64,000 nt of DNA, taken from NCBI GenBank assembly GCA_018003315.1, contig JAGNEJ010000011.1, positions 4,807 through 68,806 on the forward strand, given 5' to 3'. The notes below the pieces were generated by a model that had not been told where the DNA came from, did not search any database, and saw nothing but the letters and a program-made list of their open reading frames with translations. Positions within the stretch are counted from its first letter, which is position 1; each line of letters opens with the position of its first letter. The stretch is from Verrucomicrobiales bacterium (GTDB taxonomy: Bacteria; Verrucomicrobiota; Verrucomicrobiia; Verrucomicrobiales; V1-33). The translations under genes and the position numbers were made by a program. Below, in pieces: positions 16,893 to 22,599 of this stretch.

Positions 16893-18257
16893 ATGAAGAC
16901 CCGTTCAGATCGCCGCCGCTTTTTGAAAACTGCTGCCGCCACGGCGGTTCCATTGATTCTTCCGTCCCGCATCTGGGCGGCAGGGGAGGCCCCGAGCGGG
17001 AAGATCACCATGGGGTTTGTGGGGATGGGGAAACAGAGCCATCACCTGCTGGGGGCATTTCTGGGACAGAAAGGGGTGCAGGTAGCGGCGGTGTGCGACG
17101 TGGACACCACCCGGCGCGAGGCGGCAAAAAAACGGGTGGAGGAACGCTACGCCCAGAACAAACCGGACGGCTGGACCGGCTGCGAAGCGTTTAACGAATA
17201 TGAAAAACTCATGGCACGCAAGGACATCGACGCGGTGTGCATTGCCACGCCGGACCACTGGCATGCGGTGGTCACCCTGGCCGCATTGAATTCCGGAAAG
17301 GATGTTTATTGTGAAAAACCGCTGACCCACAACATCCACGAAGCCGTGGCGGTCATCGAGGCGGTGAAAAAGAACCGGCGGGTGCTGCAGACCGGCTCCA
17401 TGCAGCGGTCCATGGGCGAATTCCGCGTGGCCTGCGAACTGGTGCAGAATGGCATCATTGGAAAGATCAGCCGCGTGGAATGCTCCTTCGGCGGCCCCCC
17501 GCGGCCTAACGATCTCCCGGAAGAGGCGATGGAAAAGGGTCTGGACTGGAATCGCTGGCTGGGCCCCGCCCCGGTGGCGAAGTACAGCAGCGTGCTGGCC
17601 CCGCGCGGCCTGCATGACCATTTCCCCTTGTGGCGGGAATACGCCGAATATGGCGGCGGCTACGTCACCGACTGGGGTGCGCACCACCTGGACATTGCCC
17701 AATGGGGCCTGGGCATGGACGAAAGCGGTCCGGTGGAAATCATTCCTCCACCGGGCAGCGTCGAGAAGATTGCGGCAAAAAAGAACCTGGGCCTGCGCGG
17801 CTGCCGGTTGATTTACAAAAACGGAGTGGTGGTCGAGCACAAGGACGGGTTCGGCGTGCACTTTTTTGGGGACGGCGGCGAGGTGAAAGTCAACCGCGGC
17901 CAGTTCGAGGTCATTGTCGCCGGACAGACGATCGCCAAAAAAACCGGCGACGTGAAGACCACCAGCACGGAGCGCGAATACCACAAGGCCGAACAGGAAC
18001 TCCTGAAGGCTGCGAAGATTCACCTTTATCACAGCAAGGACCACATTGCCGATTTCATCCAGTGCGTGAAAAGCCGCCAGCGGCCGATCACGCATGAAGG
18101 AGTGGGCGGAGGCAGCGCGATCGCCTGCCACCTGATGAACATCGCCTACCGCACCGGCAAAACATTCCAGTGGGATCCGGCGAAAAATGCCATCGTCGGC
18201 GGCGGAGTCGATGCCTCGGAACTGACCCGCAGCTACCGCAGTCCCTGGACGGTCTGA
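16893..18257 (+). CDS. Gfo/Idh/MocA-family oxidoreductase with Tat signal
   Basis: An ATG at 16893 gives MKTRSDRRRFLKTAAATAV, a twin-arginine signal. A Rossmann motif (ITMGFVGMGKQ) and EKPL are present. Confidence 0.8.
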   Translation: MKTRSDRRRFLKTAAATAVPLILPSRIWAAGEAPSGKITMGFVGMGKQSHHLLGAFLGQKGVQVAAVCDVDTTRREAAKKRVEERYAQNKPDGWTGCEAFNEYEKLMARKDIDAVCIATPDHWHAVVTLAALNSGKDVYCEKPLTHNIHEAVAVIEAVKKNRRVLQTGSMQRSMGEFRVACELVQNGIIGKISRVECSFGGPPRPNDLPEEAMEKGLDWNRWLGPAPVAKYSSVLAPRGLHDHFPLWREYAEYGGGYVTDWGAHHLDIAQWGLGMDESGPVEIIPPPGSVEKIAAKKNLGLRGCRLIYKNGVVVEHKDGFGVHFFGDGGEVKVNRGQFEVIVAGQTIAKKTGDVKTTSTEREYHKAEQELLKAAKIHLYHSKDHIADFIQCVKSRQRPITHEGVGGGSAIACHLMNIAYRTGKTFQWDPAKNAIVGGGVDASELTRSYRSPWTV

Positions 18258-18422
18258 ACGATAGCGCGGGGCCACCCGCCGACGGCAGATCAGGACGCTG
18301 GACGCCGGGCCGGCGCCAACTTGGCCATGGCCGGGGCTTGACACTCCTGTCAATCTGGGTCCCGTAGCCGTCCGGCCTGCACGGGCAGCTGCATCCCGCC
18401 TGCGCCGTGCCGCCTCCTGAAC

Positions 18423-20639
18423 TTGAAACACGTTGTTTTTGTCTGCACTGGAAACATCTGCCGCAGCCCCATGGCAGAGGCGCTGTTCCGTGCCATGGTC
18501 CGGGAGCGTTCCGATTACCTCGTCCAGAGCGCCGGCATCCATGCCATGGAAGGACAGCGAGCCAGCCAGCACACCGTGGGCGTGCTCCGGGGGGAGGGGA
18601 TTGACTGTTCCAATTTCCGCAGCCAGCCCCTGACCAAGCAGTTGGTGATGGAGGCCACGCACCTTTTTGTGATGACGCACGGGCACCGCGAGGCGATTGA
18701 AGCGCTCTTTCCCCAAGCCGCGGCCAAGACCTATCTGCTGTCGGAATTTTGTGCCGACGAACGCGTCATGGGCATGGACGTACCGGACCCGATTGGTCTT
18801 GGCAAAAGCGTTTACCTCGCCACCGCCGAACTCATCAAGCAGGTACTGCCGAGCGTTTTCGGTTATATTGAAACAACCTGGAAACCCGCGAAGTCCACCG
18901 CCGATTCCGCCAGTCATTCATCCGCCCCATCCATGAGCAACCCAGCCCCCGCAGCCTCCATCCCCGCATCCAGCAGCGAAATTCCTGACAACAAACGAAT
19001 CAGCGTGGCGGCGGACCACGGCGGGTTCCAGCTCAAGCAGGCGCTGGTCCGGCATTTGCGGAGCCAGGGCCGGGAAGTGGACGACCTGGGCACCCATGAC
19101 GGGGCCAGCGTGGACTATTCGGATTTCGCCCGGAGCGTGGCCACCGCGGTGCGGGAGGGACAGGCAGATGCGGGTTTGCTGATCTGCACCACGGGGATCG
19201 GCATGTGCATGGCAGCCAATCGTTTTCCCGGCATTCAGGCCGCCCTGGTGCAGGACGCGGCCACTGCCGCCCTGACCCGCCACCACAACAATGCCAACGT
19301 GCTGTGCCTGGCAGGCTCCCTGCCGGAAACCACCGCCTGCGAGATCACGGACACCTTTCTGAGCACGGAATTCGACGGCGGACGCCACCAGCGTCGCATC
19401 AATAAAATGAACGGCCTGGCTGGCACGGACCCCGCGGTGGCGGCCATCATTCGCGCCGAGGAAATCCGCCAGCAAAATAACATCGAACTGATCGCTTCCG
19501 AAAACTTTGCCAGTGCCGCCGTGCGCGAGGCGCAGGGGTCGGTCCTGACCAACAAATACGCGGAAGGCTACCCGAAAAAGCGCTGGTATGGGGGCTGTGA
19601 GCACGTGGACGAAGTGGAGCAGCTCGCCATCGACCGGGCGAAGGAGATATTCGGCGCAGCCCATGTCAACGTCCAGCCGCACAGCGGCTCCCAGGCGAAT
19701 GCCGCGGTGTATTTTTCCGTGCTGGAACACGGCGACCGCATCCTCACGATGAACCTGGCGCACGGCGGGCACCTGACCCACGGACACCCGGCAAATTTCA
19801 GCGGGAAATTCTTTCAGGTCACGCACTACGGCGTCAACGAACAGAGCGGACGCATCGACTACGACGCACTGCAGAAGCAGGCCGAGGAAGTGCGGCCCAG
19901 GATGATCACCGCGGGAGCCTCCGCTTATCCGCGGATCATCGACTTCGAACGCATGGCGCAGATTGCGAAAAGCGTGGGCGCGTATCTTTTCGTGGACATG
20001 GCACACATTGCCGGGCTCATCGCCGGCGGGGAGCACCCCTCGCCCATTCCGCATGCCGACTTTGTGACCAGCACCACTCACAAAAGCCTGCGCGGGCCGC
20101 GTGGAGGCGTTATTTTCTGCCGCGAGGAGTATGCCAAGAAGATCGACGCCATGGTGTTCCCCTTTAACCAAGGCGGCCCGCTCATGCACGTGATCGCCGC
20201 CAAGGCGGTTTGCTTTGGCGAAGCGCTCCGGACGGAATTCAAGGAGTACCAGCACCAGATCATCGGCAACGCCAAGGCACTGGCCGCCCGATTGATGGCC
20301 CTGGGCTACCGGCTCGCCTCCGACGGGACCGACAACCATTTGATGCTGCTGGACCTCCGCCAGCAAGGCCTCAACGGAAAAATCGCCCAGGAGGCGCTGG
20401 ACAAATCCGGCATCACCGTAAACAAGAACGCGATTCCCTTCGACCCCGCACCGCCCGTTCGACCCAGTGGCATCCGCATCGGCACTCCCGCGGTCACCAC
20501 CCGCGGGATGAAGGAGCCGGAGATGGACCTCATTGCCGAATTCATCCATGCCGCGCTGACCGGGCATTCCGATGAGGCGAAACTGGCAGGCCTTCGGGAA
20601 CAGGTCGTGGCACTCAACCGGAAATTCCCCCTGCCGTGA
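18423..20639 (+). CDS. glyA: single ORF fusing LMW protein phosphatase + ribose-5-phosphate isomerase B + serine hydroxymethyltransferase
   Basis: TTG start at 18423. The modules are CTGNICRSP (C-X5-R P-loop); [13 protein letters not shown]...[12 protein letters not shown]...[10 protein letters not shown] (RpiB); and IELIASENF...[12 protein letters not shown] (SHMT with the PLP lysine). There is no in-frame stop across 738 codons. Confidence 0.85.
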
Positions 20640-20776
20640 CCGCCGCCGCAATTCCACCTTTCGAAGAAAATTCACCCGGACGAATCTTTTTCTTGCCGAA
20701 CCTCTGTTCCCTTGTGTAATCCTCCAGCATTCGGAAAAGCCGAGCAAATTTCCAACCCAGTCCAAGCAAAATTCCT

Positions 20777-21769
20777 ATGTGGAAACCAATGACGATCATC
20801 TCCGGGATTCTCCTCCTCGGAGCCGCTGGTGCCAACTTCCTGGCCATGCAGCAGATGCAGATGGAGAAACAACTGGCCAAGACCGCGGAAAACAACGAAC
20901 TGGATTCCGCAAAATACTTGAAGTCCGCCAAGGACCGGCGGGACGAGATTAAAAAGGCGCTCGACCAGCGGAAGGACGAAGCGGACAAAATGCAGCGCGC
21001 CCTGGCTGAGGCAAAGTCAGCCCGCGAAACCGCGGACACCAAGCAAAAGGAGGAGGAAGCCAAGCGCGACCAGGTGACCAAACAGCGCGATGATTTGAAG
21101 AAGAAACTCGACGACCTGGGCGGGCTCCAGCAGGTGGTGGATGAACTCAAGGGCCTTGATGCCAAAAAGACCGAATACACCGCGACCATTGCCCAGAAAG
21201 AAGCACAGCAGGCACTGGCTCTGCAGCGCAAGCAGCAGGCCGAGGAGCGCATCGCGGCCTTGAAGCGTCGCGATCTCATGCAAAAGACCGGATTGATGGC
21301 TGACTCCTTTTCCGGATCCATCACCGACATTGACACCGAGTGGGGCTTCATCACCATCAACCGCGGCGACTCCGCCAACGTGGTAAAGAATGCCAAACTG
21401 GATGTGAAACGCGGCTCTGACAAGATCGCCACGCTCGTGGTCACCAATGTCCAGCCCGGAAGCGCCGTCTGCGACGTGGTGCCCGGCACGCTGGCCCCCG
21501 GCTCCGCCCTGCAGCGAGGTGACCGGGTTACTGTTAGCGACACTTCCTCGGAAAAGAACCTGCCCAAGGCGGGGGAAAATCCACCCGCCGCCCCTGCACC
21601 CGGCGGGACCCCGGCACCGGCGGATCCGACCGCTCCGGCCGCCCCGCCCGCCGCACCCAGCGAAACACCTGCGCCCGCTGCGGATCCATTTGCTCCAGCC
21701 ACGCCAGCGGCTCCGACCGCCCCGGCCGCTCCGACCGAACCCGCGGCCCCTGAGAAAATGGAAAACTGA
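20777..21769 (+). CDS. membrane-anchored coiled-coil protein with C-terminal small beta-domain and Pro/Ala-rich tail (paralog 1)
   Basis: N-terminal TM (IISGILLLGAAGANFL), then ~170 aa of charged heptad-like sequence, then the beta segment GSITDIDTEWGFITINRG...RGDRVTV. The PA-rich tail is encoded at ~21560-21766. Confidence 0.6.
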   Translation: MWKPMTIISGILLLGAAGANFLAMQQMQMEKQLAKTAENNELDSAKYLKSAKDRRDEIKKALDQRKDEADKMQRALAEAKSARETADTKQKEEEAKRDQVTKQRDDLKKKLDDLGGLQQVVDELKGLDAKKTEYTATIAQKEAQQALALQRKQQAEERIAALKRRDLMQKTGLMADSFSGSITDIDTEWGFITINRGDSANVVKNAKLDVKRGSDKIATLVVTNVQPGSAVCDVVPGTLAPGSALQRGDRVTVSDTSSEKNLPKAGENPPAAPAPGGTPAPADPTAPAAPPAAPSETPAPAADPFAPATPAAPTAPAAPTEPAAPEKMEN

Positions 21770-21813: not shown

Positions 21814-22599
21814 ATGAAAATCACCTACATTCTGGCCCTGCTGGCAATCGTCGCCAACGTGGTGCTCGGTGTCATGAACCGGAACAAGTTCATCGCCACC
21901 CGAAAGCAAAAAGACGAAAATACCCGGGCGGTTTATCAGAATTTCAAGAAGGTCGATGACGAAAACAAGACTTCCAATGGTCACATCGACAACTGGAATC
22001 TGGAAGACCAGCGTTACAACCGCGACAATACCGCCCGGCAGAACGAGGATGGCGCGAAAAAATCCGCCGAAGGCAAGATTGCGGATGCCGTAAAAGCCAC
22101 CAACGAAGCGCAGATGGCGATTGATGCCATCAACAAGGAGATTCAAACCACCCTGGCCGGATTCGGTGGAACCCCGGAGGAATTGCAGGCCCGCCGCGAT
22201 ACCCTCAAGGCGGAAACCGAGGAAATGGCCAAAAAAATCGAAGTGCTCTCCAAGGAAATCGACGTGACCAACGGCATTATTGGCGAGCATGAGAAGGTCA
22301 TTTCCCGCTTCAACCAGCAGCAGACCGACCGCTCCAAAGCCATCCAGCTCGGCAGCCGCCAGGGCACGATCAATGCCGTCAATCCGGATTGGGCCTTTGT
22401 CATCGTCAACATGGGCAAGGATCAGGGTGTCAACAATGATTCCAAGCTGCTTGTAAAGCGCGGCACCCAGTTGCTGGGCAAACTCAAGATCACCCAGATC
22501 GAGAAAAACCTGACGGTGGCGGACATCGATCCGAAATCCCTGGAAGGTGGCGAACAGATTGTGCCCGGAGATCAGGTCATTTTTGACACCGCCAATTGA
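21814..22599 (+). CDS. membrane-anchored coiled-coil protein with C-terminal small beta-domain (paralog 2)
   Basis: N-terminal TM (ITYILALLAIVANVVLGV), a coiled-coil middle, and a C-terminal segment GTINAVNPDWAFVIVNMG...PGDQVIF that aligns with the upstream gene. Confidence 0.6.
   Translation: MKITYILALLAIVANVVLGVMNRNKFIATRKQKDENTRAVYQNFKKVDDENKTSNGHIDNWNLEDQRYNRDNTARQNEDGAKKSAEGKIADAVKATNEAQMAIDAINKEIQTTLAGFGGTPEELQARRDTLKAETEEMAKKIEVLSKEIDVTNGIIGEHEKVISRFNQQQTDRSKAIQLGSRQGTINAVNPDWAFVIVNMGKDQGVNNDSKLLVKRGTQLLGKLKITQIEKNLTVADIDPKSLEGGEQIVPGDQVIFDTAN

What the first reader, a model, noticed from the sequence alone, without database searches (positions are those of the whole stretch)
18423..20639. 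One 738-codon ORF fuses LMW phosphatase, RpiB and serine hydroxymethyltransferase
Seen: there is no in-frame stop between three complete modules. The first is CTGNICRSP...DVPDPIG, an LMW-PTP/arginine-phosphatase type P-loop. A ~40-aa Ser/Pro/Ala linker follows. The second is [13 protein letters not shown]...[12 protein letters not shown]...[10 protein letters not shown] (RpiB/LacAB). The third is IELIASENF...[12 protein letters not shown] (SHMT). In-frame ATGs at 18933 and 19407 sit at the module boundaries, and [19 protein letters not shown] would be a normal GlyA N-terminus. Established knowledge: ywlE (LMW phosphatase), ywlF (rpiB) and glyA are near neighbours in Bacillus-type genomes, so this ORF physically fuses a known conserved neighbourhood, Rosetta-stone style. 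Inference: this is either a true trifunctional polypeptide or stop-codon loss with internal initiation still producing separate enzymes. Either way it argues for a functional link between the phosphatase and pentose/one-carbon metabolism.
Basis: partly seen in the sequence, partly recalled or inferred. Interest (0 to 1): 0.55.

Follow-up and report, generated by a model that had tools for sequence, protein, structure and literature searches.

The report
Conserved phosphatase–RpiB–SHMT fusion gene
One real 738-codon gene joins a small protein phosphatase, ribose-5-phosphate isomerase B and serine hydroxymethyltransferase; this fusion is standard in Verrucomicrobiota and was noted in 2008, so it is ordinary, although a conserved internal ATG hints that a shorter two-enzyme form is also made.

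Summary
Window 18423..20639 (+) is one uninterrupted 738-codon ORF with complete LMWPc (aa 4-142), RpiB (193-329) and SHMT (334-738) modules.

It is not an assembly artefact or a recent stop-codon loss. The same three-domain protein, at 52-72% identity, was found in more than 190 independent Verrucomicrobiota sequences (Verrucomicrobiales, Chthoniobacterales, Limisphaerales/Pedosphaera). Every catalytic residue I checked is invariant or nearly so.

[quoted passage not shown] The fusion is therefore already known, though I found no biochemical study of it.

- The P-loop has Ile, not the Thr that marks arginine phosphatases.
- The ATG at 19407 lies inside RpiB's last helix and is M/L/I in relatives, so it is not a conserved GlyA start.

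New here: in the window's clade the 5' start is always GTG or TTG. The otherwise hypervariable linker keeps exactly one Met (ATG 18933), which sits in G-poor, unstructured mRNA. That Met also serves as the start codon where the gene has split. This suggests, but does not prove, a second RpiB-SHMT isoform.

The parts
18423..20639 (+). Whole fusion ORF: 738 codons plus stop, 79.7 kDa predicted
   Evidence: Identical to GenBank MBP7949047.1.
18423..18425 (+). TTG start codon, 7 codons before the catalytic Cys. It is the only start that includes the P-loop.
   Evidence: Relatives in the same clade have GTG or TTG at the same place.
18423..18878 (+). LMW phosphatase (LMWPc) domain, aa 1-152
   Evidence: Pfam PF01451, 3e-27. 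Best PDB matches are the YwlE entries 4pic and 1zgg. AF2 pLDDT about 97.
18444..18467 (+). P-loop CTGNICRS: Cys8 nucleophile, Ile12 at the specificity position, Arg14, Ser15
18471..18473 (+). ATG Met17 (CRSPMAE). Several gene callers use it as the start, which gives a 722-aa protein without the catalytic Cys.
18786..18791 (+). Asp122-Pro123 of DVPDPIG, the general-acid DP motif. Invariant in 195 of 195 sequences.
18879..18998 (+). Ser/Pro/Ala/Thr-rich linker of 40 aa (aa 153-192). Predicted disordered. C 43%, G 17.5%. It is the most C-over-G-skewed and among the least structured mRNA stretches of the gene.
18933..18935 (+). ATG Met171, the single conserved Met of the linker. Candidate internal start for a 568-aa (61.1 kDa) RpiB-SHMT isoform.
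   Evidence: Equivalent to the start Met of RpiB-SHMT in the split genes of L018 and L006.
18999..19415 (+). RpiB domain, aa 193-331. Contains Asp198, His199, Cys255, Thr257, His288, Asn289, Arg321, His322, Arg325.
19185..19187 (+). Codon of Cys255, equivalent to the catalytic Cys66 of E. coli RpiB (equivalence from my own knowledge). Invariant in 195 of 195.
19407..19409 (+). ATG Met329. A hydrophobic position in the last RpiB helix, not a conserved start.
19416..20636 (+). SHMT (GlyA) domain, aa 332-738
   Evidence: PF00464 1e-164. NF000586 625 bits, covering profile positions 1-403 of 404.
20082..20084 (+). Codon of Lys554 in [12 protein letters not shown], the PLP Schiff-base lysine. Invariant in 195 of 195.

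Best explanation
This is an ordinary, functional gene of a Verrucomicrobiales bacterium. It encodes the phylum-typical trifunctional protein: a YwlE-related low-molecular-weight phosphatase, a disordered linker of about 40 aa, ribose-5-phosphate isomerase B, a junction of about 5 aa, and serine hydroxymethyltransferase. All three active sites are intact. The polypeptide should therefore interconvert ribulose-5-P and ribose-5-P, convert serine plus tetrahydrofolate to glycine plus 5,10-methylene-THF, and hydrolyse a phosphorylated substrate that is still unknown; the Ile in its P-loop matches phosphotyrosine-type enzymes. RpiB and SHMT share no intermediate, so the link is most likely co-supply of nucleotide precursors (ribose-5-P for PRPP; glycine and one-carbon units for purines and thymidylate) rather than channelling. 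That step is inferred. A further inferred step applies to the window's clade. The weak TTG/GTG start makes little full-length 79.7-kDa protein. The conserved linker ATG (18933), lying in unstructured G-poor mRNA, also initiates a 61.1-kDa RpiB-SHMT isoform. The phosphatase would then be sub-stoichiometric, and could be tethered through mixed oligomers.
For: The ORF and its domains are confirmed. All 120 best database hits have the three Pfam domains. Of the 80 genome loci, 74 have one open frame spanning all three modules. Across 195 sequences the catalytic residues are invariant or nearly so: LMWPc D122 and P123, with C8, R14 and S15 in every sequence that includes the N-terminus; RpiB D198, H199, C255, N289, H322 and R325 invariant, H288 and R321 in 194 of 195, and position 257 T or S; SHMT Y379, E381, Y389, H420, D525, H528, K554 and R685. 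AF2 gives three confident folds with only the linker disordered. The same architecture is published for Minf_1669, and this protein is annotated as MBP7949047.1. purD lies upstream in 9 related loci and purF in 5. Evidence for the internal start: 96% of 136 unique linkers of 18 aa or more have exactly one Met (variance/mean 0.04), against 29-43% for R, E, N, Q and D. Twenty-nine of 30 loci with a non-ATG 5' start have the linker Met, against 16 of 45 with an ATG start. The 50-nt mRNA window on that ATG is at the 0.99 percentile of least structure within its own gene, against 0.50 for linkers without Met. Synonymous G3 is 0.20 in the linker against 0.38 in the rest of the gene; Met-less linkers show no such drop, 0.33 against 0.34. 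In two split genes, RpiB-SHMT starts at an MS motif like the linker's (L018 SMSQNP, window SMSNP; L006 MSS).
Against: There are no protein-level data, so polypeptide sizes, activities and oligomeric state are untested. No Shine-Dalgarno motif precedes ATG 18933, and no sigma-70-like internal promoter was found. The association between start-codon type and linker Met is not corrected for phylogeny and may reflect only one or two evolutionary events. Linkers without Met are shorter, which confounds the RNA-structure control. The window's own neighbours (a Gfo/Idh/MocA oxidoreductase and two unknown coiled-coil proteins) give no functional clue and are not conserved. The phosphatase substrate is unknown.
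Confidence: 0.85

Rival explanations
1. Only the full-length trifunctional polypeptide is made. The conserved linker Met is a fossil of the ancestral rpiB start, or a one-residue docking or processing motif. The G-poor mRNA is a by-product of the Pro/Thr/Ser-rich linker composition.
For: No SD motif lies upstream of the linker ATG and no internal promoter was found. A deeper clade with an ATG 5' start often lacks the Met and evidently functions without it. Linker amino-acid composition alone makes the RNA C-rich.
Against: A fossil should decay in a linker where everything else varies, yet 96% of long linkers keep exactly one Met. G depletion is also seen at synonymous third positions, and is absent from Met-less linkers. 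The 5' start changes between GTG and TTG in this clade; only L001 has an ATG there. Two independent gene fissions start RpiB-SHMT at a Met just upstream of the RpiB domain.
Confidence: 0.4
2. One reading: the frame is open, but three separate enzymes of about 17, 15 and 45 kDa are produced from internal starts at both junctions.
For: In-frame ATGs exist at 18933 and 19407.
Against: Met329 is M/L/I/F/V in relatives. It aligns with Ile inside stand-alone RpiB and sits in a predicted helix. The RpiB-SHMT junction is only about 5 aa. RpiB and SHMT stay fused even where the phosphatase is separate. A ribosome that translates the phosphatase domain meets no stop codon and must read on.
Confidence: 0.04
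3. Assembly or sequencing artefact: missed stops or indels joined three adjacent genes in this metagenome-assembled genome.
For: The record is a MAG. One related MAG locus (L003) does show a probable frameshift error, in the opposite direction.
Against: The same uninterrupted architecture is found in more than 190 independent sequences from many studies, including contigs of 6.4-8.2 Mb that look like complete genomes, and in Chthoniobacter flavus.
Confidence: 0.02
4. The C-rich, G-poor, unstructured linker RNA is an intragenic Rho-loading (rut-like) site. It would attenuate transcription of the RpiB-SHMT part when translation from the weak 5' start fails.
For: The linker is the strongest C-over-G stretch of the gene (C 43%, G 17.5%) and is unstructured. 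The rho gene lies directly downstream in 19 related loci, though that may be coincidence.
Against: This does not explain the single invariant ATG. It would cut expression of two housekeeping enzymes.
Confidence: 0.06

Closest known systems
Minf_1669 of Methylacidiphilum infernorum V4 (Hou et al. 2008, Biol Direct 3:26; PMC2474590)
   Same: [quoted passage not shown] The authors drew the same inference of a link between one-carbon/serine metabolism and the pentose phosphate pathway.
   Different: It comes from a different order (Methylacidiphilales) and I did not retrieve its sequence. The paper gives no biochemistry and says nothing about start codons or a linker Met.
Database orthologues, e.g. 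Chthoniobacter flavus 'ribose 5-phosphate isomerase B' (P0115, 732 aa) and Verrucomicrobiaceae SCGC AG-212-N21 'glycine hydroxymethyltransferase' (P0096)
   Same: 59-62% identity over the full length, with the same domain order, the same catalytic residues and a linker Met.
   Different: Linker length and sequence differ. P0096 and many others are annotated from the internal Met17, so the catalytic Cys is missing from the record.
Bacillus/Geobacillus YwlE protein arginine phosphatase (PDB 4pic, 1zgg, 4kk3)
   Same: It is the best structural-database relative of the N-terminal domain (1.9e-23). It shares the fold family, the CX5R(S) P-loop and the DP general acid. From my own knowledge, ywlE lies next to ywlF (rpiB) and near glyA in B. 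subtilis.
   Different: YwlE has Thr at P-loop position 5, which is critical for phosphoarginine activity. The window has Ile, as in most phosphotyrosine-specific LMW-PTPs. YwlE is a stand-alone protein.
Two-domain LMWPc-RpiB proteins of Bacillota (Halothermothrix orenii, Halanaerobiales, Limnochordia, Thermoanaerobacter, Geochorda subterranea)
   Same: The phosphatase is fused N-terminally to RpiB in the same order, and the proteins are annotated 'ribose 5-phosphate isomerase B'.
   Different: They have no SHMT domain and a short linker. The five such fusions I read in full that begin at a complete P-loop have Thr at position 5 (YwlE-like).
Two-domain RpiB-SHMT proteins (Haloferula rosea KCTC 22201, L018; Akkermansiaceae MAG, L074; Verrucomicrobiaceae MAG, L006; P0247)
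   Same: The RpiB-SHMT junction is the same tight one. L018 and L006 keep the phosphatase as the adjacent upstream gene.
   Different: The phosphatase is a separate gene (L018, L006) or is not adjacent (L074).

Membership tests
Low-molecular-weight phosphatase superfamily (Pfam LMWPc, PF01451) | Profile match above the gathering score over the full domain | tested here: met
   96 bits against a cutoff of 23.2; aa 4-142 match profile positions 1-140 of 144.
Low-molecular-weight phosphatase superfamily (Pfam LMWPc, PF01451) | N-terminal C-X5-R-(S/T) P-loop and a downstream Asp-Pro general acid | tested here: met
   C8-TGNIC-R14-S15 and D122-P123. Both are invariant in relatives that include the N-terminus.
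Protein arginine phosphatase (YwlE/PtpB/DARP type) | Thr at position 5 of the P-loop (YwlE Thr11) | tested here: not met
   The window has Ile12. Orthologues have I 59, V 41, T 9. The role of this Thr is described in PMC7772506.
Protein arginine phosphatase (YwlE/PtpB/DARP type) | Closest sequence relatives are characterised arginine phosphatases | tested here: met
   The best PDB hits are 4pic (arginine phosphatase YwlE, 1.9e-23) and the YwlE entries 1zgg and 4kk3, ahead of Wzb and PtpA.
Protein arginine phosphatase (YwlE/PtpB/DARP type) | Preference for phosphoarginine over phosphotyrosine, and presence of a McsB-type arginine kinase in the genome | not testable with these tools
   This needs enzyme assays and the whole genome; only 64 kb is available.
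Arsenate reductase, thioredoxin-coupled (ArsC pI258 type, LMWPc fold) | NCBIfam equivalog score, and the downstream Cys pair (Cys82/Cys89 of pI258 ArsC, from my own knowledge) | tested here: not met
   TIGR02691 scores 36.8 bits against a cutoff of 174.3. The stretch around aa 80-95 ([17 protein letters not shown]) contains no Cys.
Ribose-5-phosphate isomerase B (TIGR01120 equivalog; Pfam LacAB_rpiB) | Score above the curated equivalog cutoff | tested here: met
   TIGR01120 scores 149.5 against 138.65. The LacA, LacB and actinobacterial RPI equivalogs all fall below their cutoffs.
Ribose-5-phosphate isomerase B (TIGR01120 equivalog; Pfam LacAB_rpiB) | Cys-type catalytic set, i.e. equivalents of E. 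coli RpiB Asp9/His10, Cys66, Thr68, His99/Asn100, Arg133/His134/Arg137 (numbering from my own knowledge) | tested here: met
   D198/H199, C255, T257, H288/N289 and R321/H322/R325 are present. They are 194-195 of 195 conserved, with position 257 T or S. The alignment to T. maritima RpiB 1o1x scores 6e-39.
Serine hydroxymethyltransferase (PF00464; NF000586) | Full-length profile match above cutoff | tested here: met
   NF000586 scores 625 bits against 335, covering profile positions 1-403 of 404. PF00464 scores 1e-164.
Serine hydroxymethyltransferase (PF00464; NF000586) | PLP-binding Lys in T-T-H-K, plus equivalents of conserved E. coli SHMT active-site residues (Y55, E57, Y65, H126, D200, H203, R363; numbering from my own knowledge) | tested here: met
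   K554, Y379, E381, Y389, H420, D525, H528 and R685 are all invariant in 195 sequences.
Verrucomicrobial LMWPc-RpiB-SHMT trifunctional fusion (Minf_1669 type) | Three domains in this order in one uninterrupted ORF, in a verrucomicrobial genome | tested here: met
   The organism label is Verrucomicrobiales. Orthologues were found at 52-72% identity.
Verrucomicrobial LMWPc-RpiB-SHMT trifunctional fusion (Minf_1669 type) | A single polypeptide carrying all three activities | not testable with these tools
   I found no biochemical or proteomic study of any member.

The most novel reading that the evidence does not exclude
In Verrucomicrobiales and Chthoniobacterales, including this window, the fusion gene may be a two-output gene. 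A deliberately weak GTG/TTG start would give a small amount of full-length phosphatase-RpiB-SHMT. A conserved, SD-less ATG in an unstructured, G-depleted linker (18933 here) would initiate the bulk RpiB-SHMT isoform. That would set a sub-stoichiometric phosphatase-to-enzyme ratio within mixed oligomers. It would also explain why the gene has been able to split at exactly this point in some lineages.
Probability: 0.5. Interest if true: 0.45.

Novelty: already known. Interest (0 to 1): 0.28.

Why it matters
The fusion itself adds little. It is a textbook Rosetta-stone case, already in the literature (2008) and in databases. It links a YwlE-like phosphatase with RpiB and SHMT, and so with the supply of ribose-5-P, glycine and one-carbon units for nucleotides.

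Three practical points come out of the check:
- 86 of the 120 best database entries for this family start at an internal Met and lack the catalytic Cys of the phosphatase. Domain surveys built on those records will misjudge the phosphatase as dead.
- The specificity position of the P-loop varies (I/V/T) among orthologues. The substrate class (pTyr or pArg) is therefore open and cheap to test.
- The pattern of a conserved linker ATG plus a weak 5' start is a clean, testable candidate for programmed internal initiation in a little-studied phylum.

No member of the family has been characterised biochemically, as far as I could find.

Tried and rejected
- Artefact or missed stop: rejected, because the architecture is conserved in more than 190 sequences.
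- Met329 (ATG 19407) as a GlyA start: rejected.
- ArsC-type arsenate reductase for the first domain: rejected.
- Arginine-phosphatase membership: the defining Thr is absent.
- Shine-Dalgarno motif upstream of the linker ATG: none. Anti-SD duplex energies are weaker than for other internal Mets, -0.5 against -3.3 kcal/mol. A crude survey of ORF starts in the window could not establish how much this organism uses SD at all.
- Internal sigma-70-like promoter on the + strand within the gene: none found.
- Conserved gene neighbourhood around the window's gene: none. tblastn of 8 flanking proteins against 80 loci gave one weak hit. Neighbours recur only among other loci: rho, purD, purF.
- Literature searches for the Pfam architecture names, for Minf_1669 and for ywlE/ywlF/glyA found nothing beyond the 2008 genome paper. 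The Bacillus gene order therefore rests on my own knowledge.
- No fold search was run, because sequence matches to solved structures were already unambiguous.
Full report
**Observation**

The window contains one open reading frame, 18423..20639 on the + strand. It has 738 codons, a TTG start and no internal stop. Pfam finds three complete modules:
- LMWPc at aa 4-142 (3e-27)
- LacAB_rpiB at aa 193-329 (4e-51)
- SHMT at aa 334-708 (1e-164)

NCBIfam places the last two in serine hydroxymethyltransferase (NF000586, 625 bits against a cutoff of 335, profile positions 1-403 of 404) and in the RpiB equivalog TIGR01120 (149.5 against 138.65). The LacA, LacB and actinobacterial-RPI equivalogs are below their cutoffs.

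The nearest upstream in-frame stop is at 18339-18341. TTG 18423 is the only ATG/GTG/TTG codon that keeps the P-loop in the protein.

**Is it real?**

Yes. All 120 best hits in the 5.8-billion-protein collection carry the same three Pfam domains. They are 59-72% identical and 678-781 aa long. Where named, they come from Verrucomicrobiota, for example Chthoniobacter flavus and Verrucomicrobiaceae SCGC AG-212-N21.

A scan of one genome per GTDB species returned 80 loci. These carry labels of Verrucomicrobiales, Chthoniobacterales, Limisphaerales/Pedosphaera and one Haloferula isolate. Almost all match residues 1-738 at 52-65% identity. In 74 of them a single open frame spans all three modules.

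In an alignment of 195 sequences, every catalytic residue I checked is invariant or nearly so:
- LMWPc: D122 and P123 in all 195. C8, R14 and S15 in all 109 sequences that include the N-terminus.
- RpiB: D198, H199, C255, N289, H322 and R325 invariant. H288 and R321 in 194 of 195. Position 257 is T or S.
- SHMT: Y379, E381, Y389, H420, D525, H528, K554 (the PLP lysine) and R685 invariant.

AlphaFold2 with a 66-sequence alignment gives three confidently folded domains. pLDDT is about 97 for the phosphatase, about 95 for RpiB and 80-97 for SHMT. Only residues 158-187 of the linker and a short SHMT loop (381-388) fall below 50. pTM is 0.67. An assembly artefact, a recent stop-codon loss and decaying domains are all excluded.

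**Is it known?**

Yes. The identical 738-aa protein is GenBank MBP7949047.1, [quoted passage not shown].

The genome paper of Methylacidiphilum infernorum V4 (Hou et al. [quoted passage not shown] I found no later paper and no biochemistry on any member.

**Related architectures**

The three-way fusion belongs to a wider Rosetta-stone set.
- Genuine two-domain LMWPc-RpiB proteins of about 300-330 aa, ending right after the RpiB C-terminal motif, are common in Bacillota. Examples are Halothermothrix orenii, Halanaerobiales, Limnochordia, Thermoanaerobacter and Geochorda subterranea.
- Two-domain RpiB-SHMT proteins also exist (P0247).
- Within Verrucomicrobiota, the Haloferula rosea isolate (L018) and one MAG (L006) have the phosphatase as a separate upstream gene followed by an RpiB-SHMT gene. 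An Akkermansiaceae MAG (L074) has RpiB-SHMT with an unrelated upstream gene.
- RpiB-SHMT is therefore the tight, stable junction. Phosphatase-RpiB is the labile one.

(i) The phosphatase type. By overall sequence the domain is closest to YwlE arginine phosphatases: 4pic at 1.9e-23, then 1zgg and 4kk3, ahead of Wzb and PtpA. But P-loop position 5 is Ile (CTGNICRSP). Arginine phosphatases (YwlE, DARP) have Thr there and most LMW-PTPs have Ile. In DARP, changing Thr to Ile lowers phosphoarginine activity and raises phosphotyrosine activity (PMC7772506). Among orthologues this position is I 59, V 41, T 9. Membership of the arginine-phosphatase class fails this defining feature, and the substrate class stays open.

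(ii) Met329 is not a GlyA start. It aligns with the Ile two to three residues from the C-terminus of stand-alone RpiB (T. maritima 1o1x ...RRIRKID). It lies in predicted helix 321-329. In relatives it is M94/L68/I24/F5/V2. Only about five residues separate the end of RpiB from SHMT profile position 1.

**An unexpected pattern at the first junction**

The phosphatase-RpiB linker is hypervariable in length (5-66 aa) and in sequence. It is rich in A, P, T and S. Several features nevertheless stand out.
- Of the 136 unique linkers of 18 aa or more, 96% contain exactly one Met (variance/mean 0.04). Residues of similar abundance (R, E, N, Q, D) show Poisson-like counts, with exactly one in 29-43% and variance/mean of 0.8-1.4.
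- The Met is usually followed by T, S, P, H or N. It is almost never followed by Ala, although Ala is the commonest linker residue.
- In the window this Met is Met171, ATG 18933.
- Where DNA is available, the clade that has this Met has no ATG available as the 5' start. The codon 7-10 codons before the catalytic Cys is GTG or TTG, as in the window. The deeper Limisphaerales/Pedosphaera-type sequences have ATG at -7, short linkers and often no linker Met.
- As a 2x2 table: non-ATG start with Met 29, non-ATG without Met 1, ATG with Met 16, ATG without Met 29. Fisher's test gives 3e-8, but this is not corrected for phylogeny.
- The 50-nt mRNA window centred on the linker ATG is among the least structured of its own gene. 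The median percentile is 0.99; in the window it is -1.2 against a gene mean of -12.8 kcal/mol. Linkers without Met are ordinary, at percentile 0.50.
- G at synonymous third positions of Pro/Thr/Ala/Ser codons drops from 0.38 in the rest of the gene to 0.20 in Met-containing linkers. It is lower in 35 of 41 loci; in the window it is 1 of 22 codons. Met-less linkers show no drop, 0.33 against 0.34.
- No Shine-Dalgarno match precedes the ATG, and no sigma-70-like promoter lies inside the gene.
- In the two split genes, RpiB-SHMT begins at an MS motif like the linker's: Haloferula ...SMSQNP..., compared with SMSNP in the window, and L006 MSS....

Together these observations fit a gene that also initiates internally, giving a 61.1-kDa RpiB-SHMT isoform beside the 79.7-kDa full-length protein. 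Local absence of mRNA structure is known to allow SD-independent initiation; that statement is from my own knowledge. The internal start is an inference. I put it at about 0.5.

**Mechanism**

Shown here:
- One gene, with three intact catalytic modules.
- A disordered first linker and a rigid, short second junction.
- Conservation across much of the phylum.

Inferred from established knowledge of the families:
- The protein supplies ribose-5-P (RpiB) and glycine plus 5,10-methylene-THF (SHMT).
- These are the precursors of PRPP, of the purine ring and of thymidylate.
- The two reactions share no intermediate, so co-expression and co-localisation are more likely than channelling.

Weak support comes from neighbouring genes in relatives: purD (which uses glycine) lies upstream in 9 related loci and purF (which uses PRPP) in 5. 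The rho gene lies downstream in 19. The window's own neighbours are a Gfo/Idh/MocA oxidoreductase and two uncharacterised coiled-coil paralogues. They are not conserved and give no clue.

The role of the phosphatase is unknown. Its recurrent fusion to RpiB in two phyla argues for a real functional tie. Its loose tether and apparent weak start fit a regulatory, sub-stoichiometric partner.

**Annotation issue**

Of the 120 best database proteins, 86 begin at the conserved Met17 of the CRSPMAE motif and so lack the catalytic Cys. In all 74 fused loci with DNA the upstream frame encodes CTGN[I/V/T]CRS. These are therefore start-codon miscalls, probably caused by the non-ATG true start. GenBank's own record for this protein uses the correct 738-aa form.

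**Verdict**

The finding is accurate but ordinary. It is a known, phylum-wide fusion that is already annotated and was already noted in print. Interest is low to moderate. It is raised slightly by the testable dual-initiation hypothesis, the open question of phosphatase specificity, and the fact that no member has been studied biochemically.

Noticed in passing
window 18471-18473 (Met17); proteins P0001, P0095, P0096 and 83 others: 86 of the 120 best database entries for this family start at the internal Met of CRSPMAE and so lack the catalytic Cys. The DNA of all 74 fused loci examined encodes the P-loop upstream. These look like systematic start-codon miscalls linked to GTG/TTG true starts.
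   Followed up: yes
L018 5911-8259 (Haloferula rosea KCTC 22201); L006 4639-6804; L074 5713-7656: Gene-fission variants. In L018 and L006 the phosphatase is a separate ORF followed by a two-domain RpiB-SHMT ORF (frame change in L018; a stop plus an ATG 4 nt later in L006). In L074, RpiB-SHMT follows an unrelated upstream ORF that I did not identify, with no adjacent phosphatase.
   Followed up: partly
L003 227-2428: LMWPc-RpiB ends at 314 aa and the SHMT ORF lacks its N-terminal ~40 residues. This is probably a frameshift or assembly error in that MAG, not a real variant.
   Followed up: no
P-loop position 5 (window aa 12, nt 18456-18458) across orthologues: The residue that distinguishes arginine phosphatases from tyrosine phosphatases varies among orthologous fusions (I 59, V 41, T 9). 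The Bacillota LMWPc-RpiB fusions I read that begin at a complete P-loop have Thr. Substrate class may differ between lineages.
   Followed up: partly
L059 5136-7436; L062 3340-4857; L073 2085-3623 and similar loci: Recurrent neighbours of the fusion gene in other Verrucomicrobiota are rho directly downstream (19 loci), purD upstream (9) and purF upstream (5). None of these is next to the gene in the window.
   Followed up: partly
PDB 4egs (found with window aa 1-154): A 180-aa chain deposited as 'Ribose 5-phosphate isomerase RpiB' aligns with the LMW phosphatase domain (1.5e-21, CTGNTCRSP). The name may have been carried over from a fused or mis-annotated LMWPc-RpiB gene.
   Followed up: no
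L035 and L048: Full-length fusion genes sit on contigs labelled Candidatus Methylomirabilota and Candidatus Baltobacteraceae. This may be mis-binning of verrucomicrobial contigs or horizontal transfer.
   Followed up: no
window 20777-21769 (+) and 21814-22599 (+): Two adjacent ORFs downstream of the fusion gene have no Pfam match. They share a C-terminal ~80-aa region (32% identity, E 1e-11). From the sequences they look like N-terminally hydrophobic, charged coiled-coil proteins, so they may be uncharacterised paralogues.
   Followed up: partly
window 16905-18917 (-) and 18918-20765 (-): Long antisense ORFs (670 and 615 aa) lie opposite the oxidoreductase and the fusion gene. They are most likely shadow ORFs of GC-rich coding DNA, not genes.
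   Followed up: no
window 18879-18998: The linker-coding stretch is the strongest C-over-G-skewed segment of the gene (C 43%, G 17.5%). Such unstructured C-rich RNA also resembles Rho-loading sites.
   Followed up: partly
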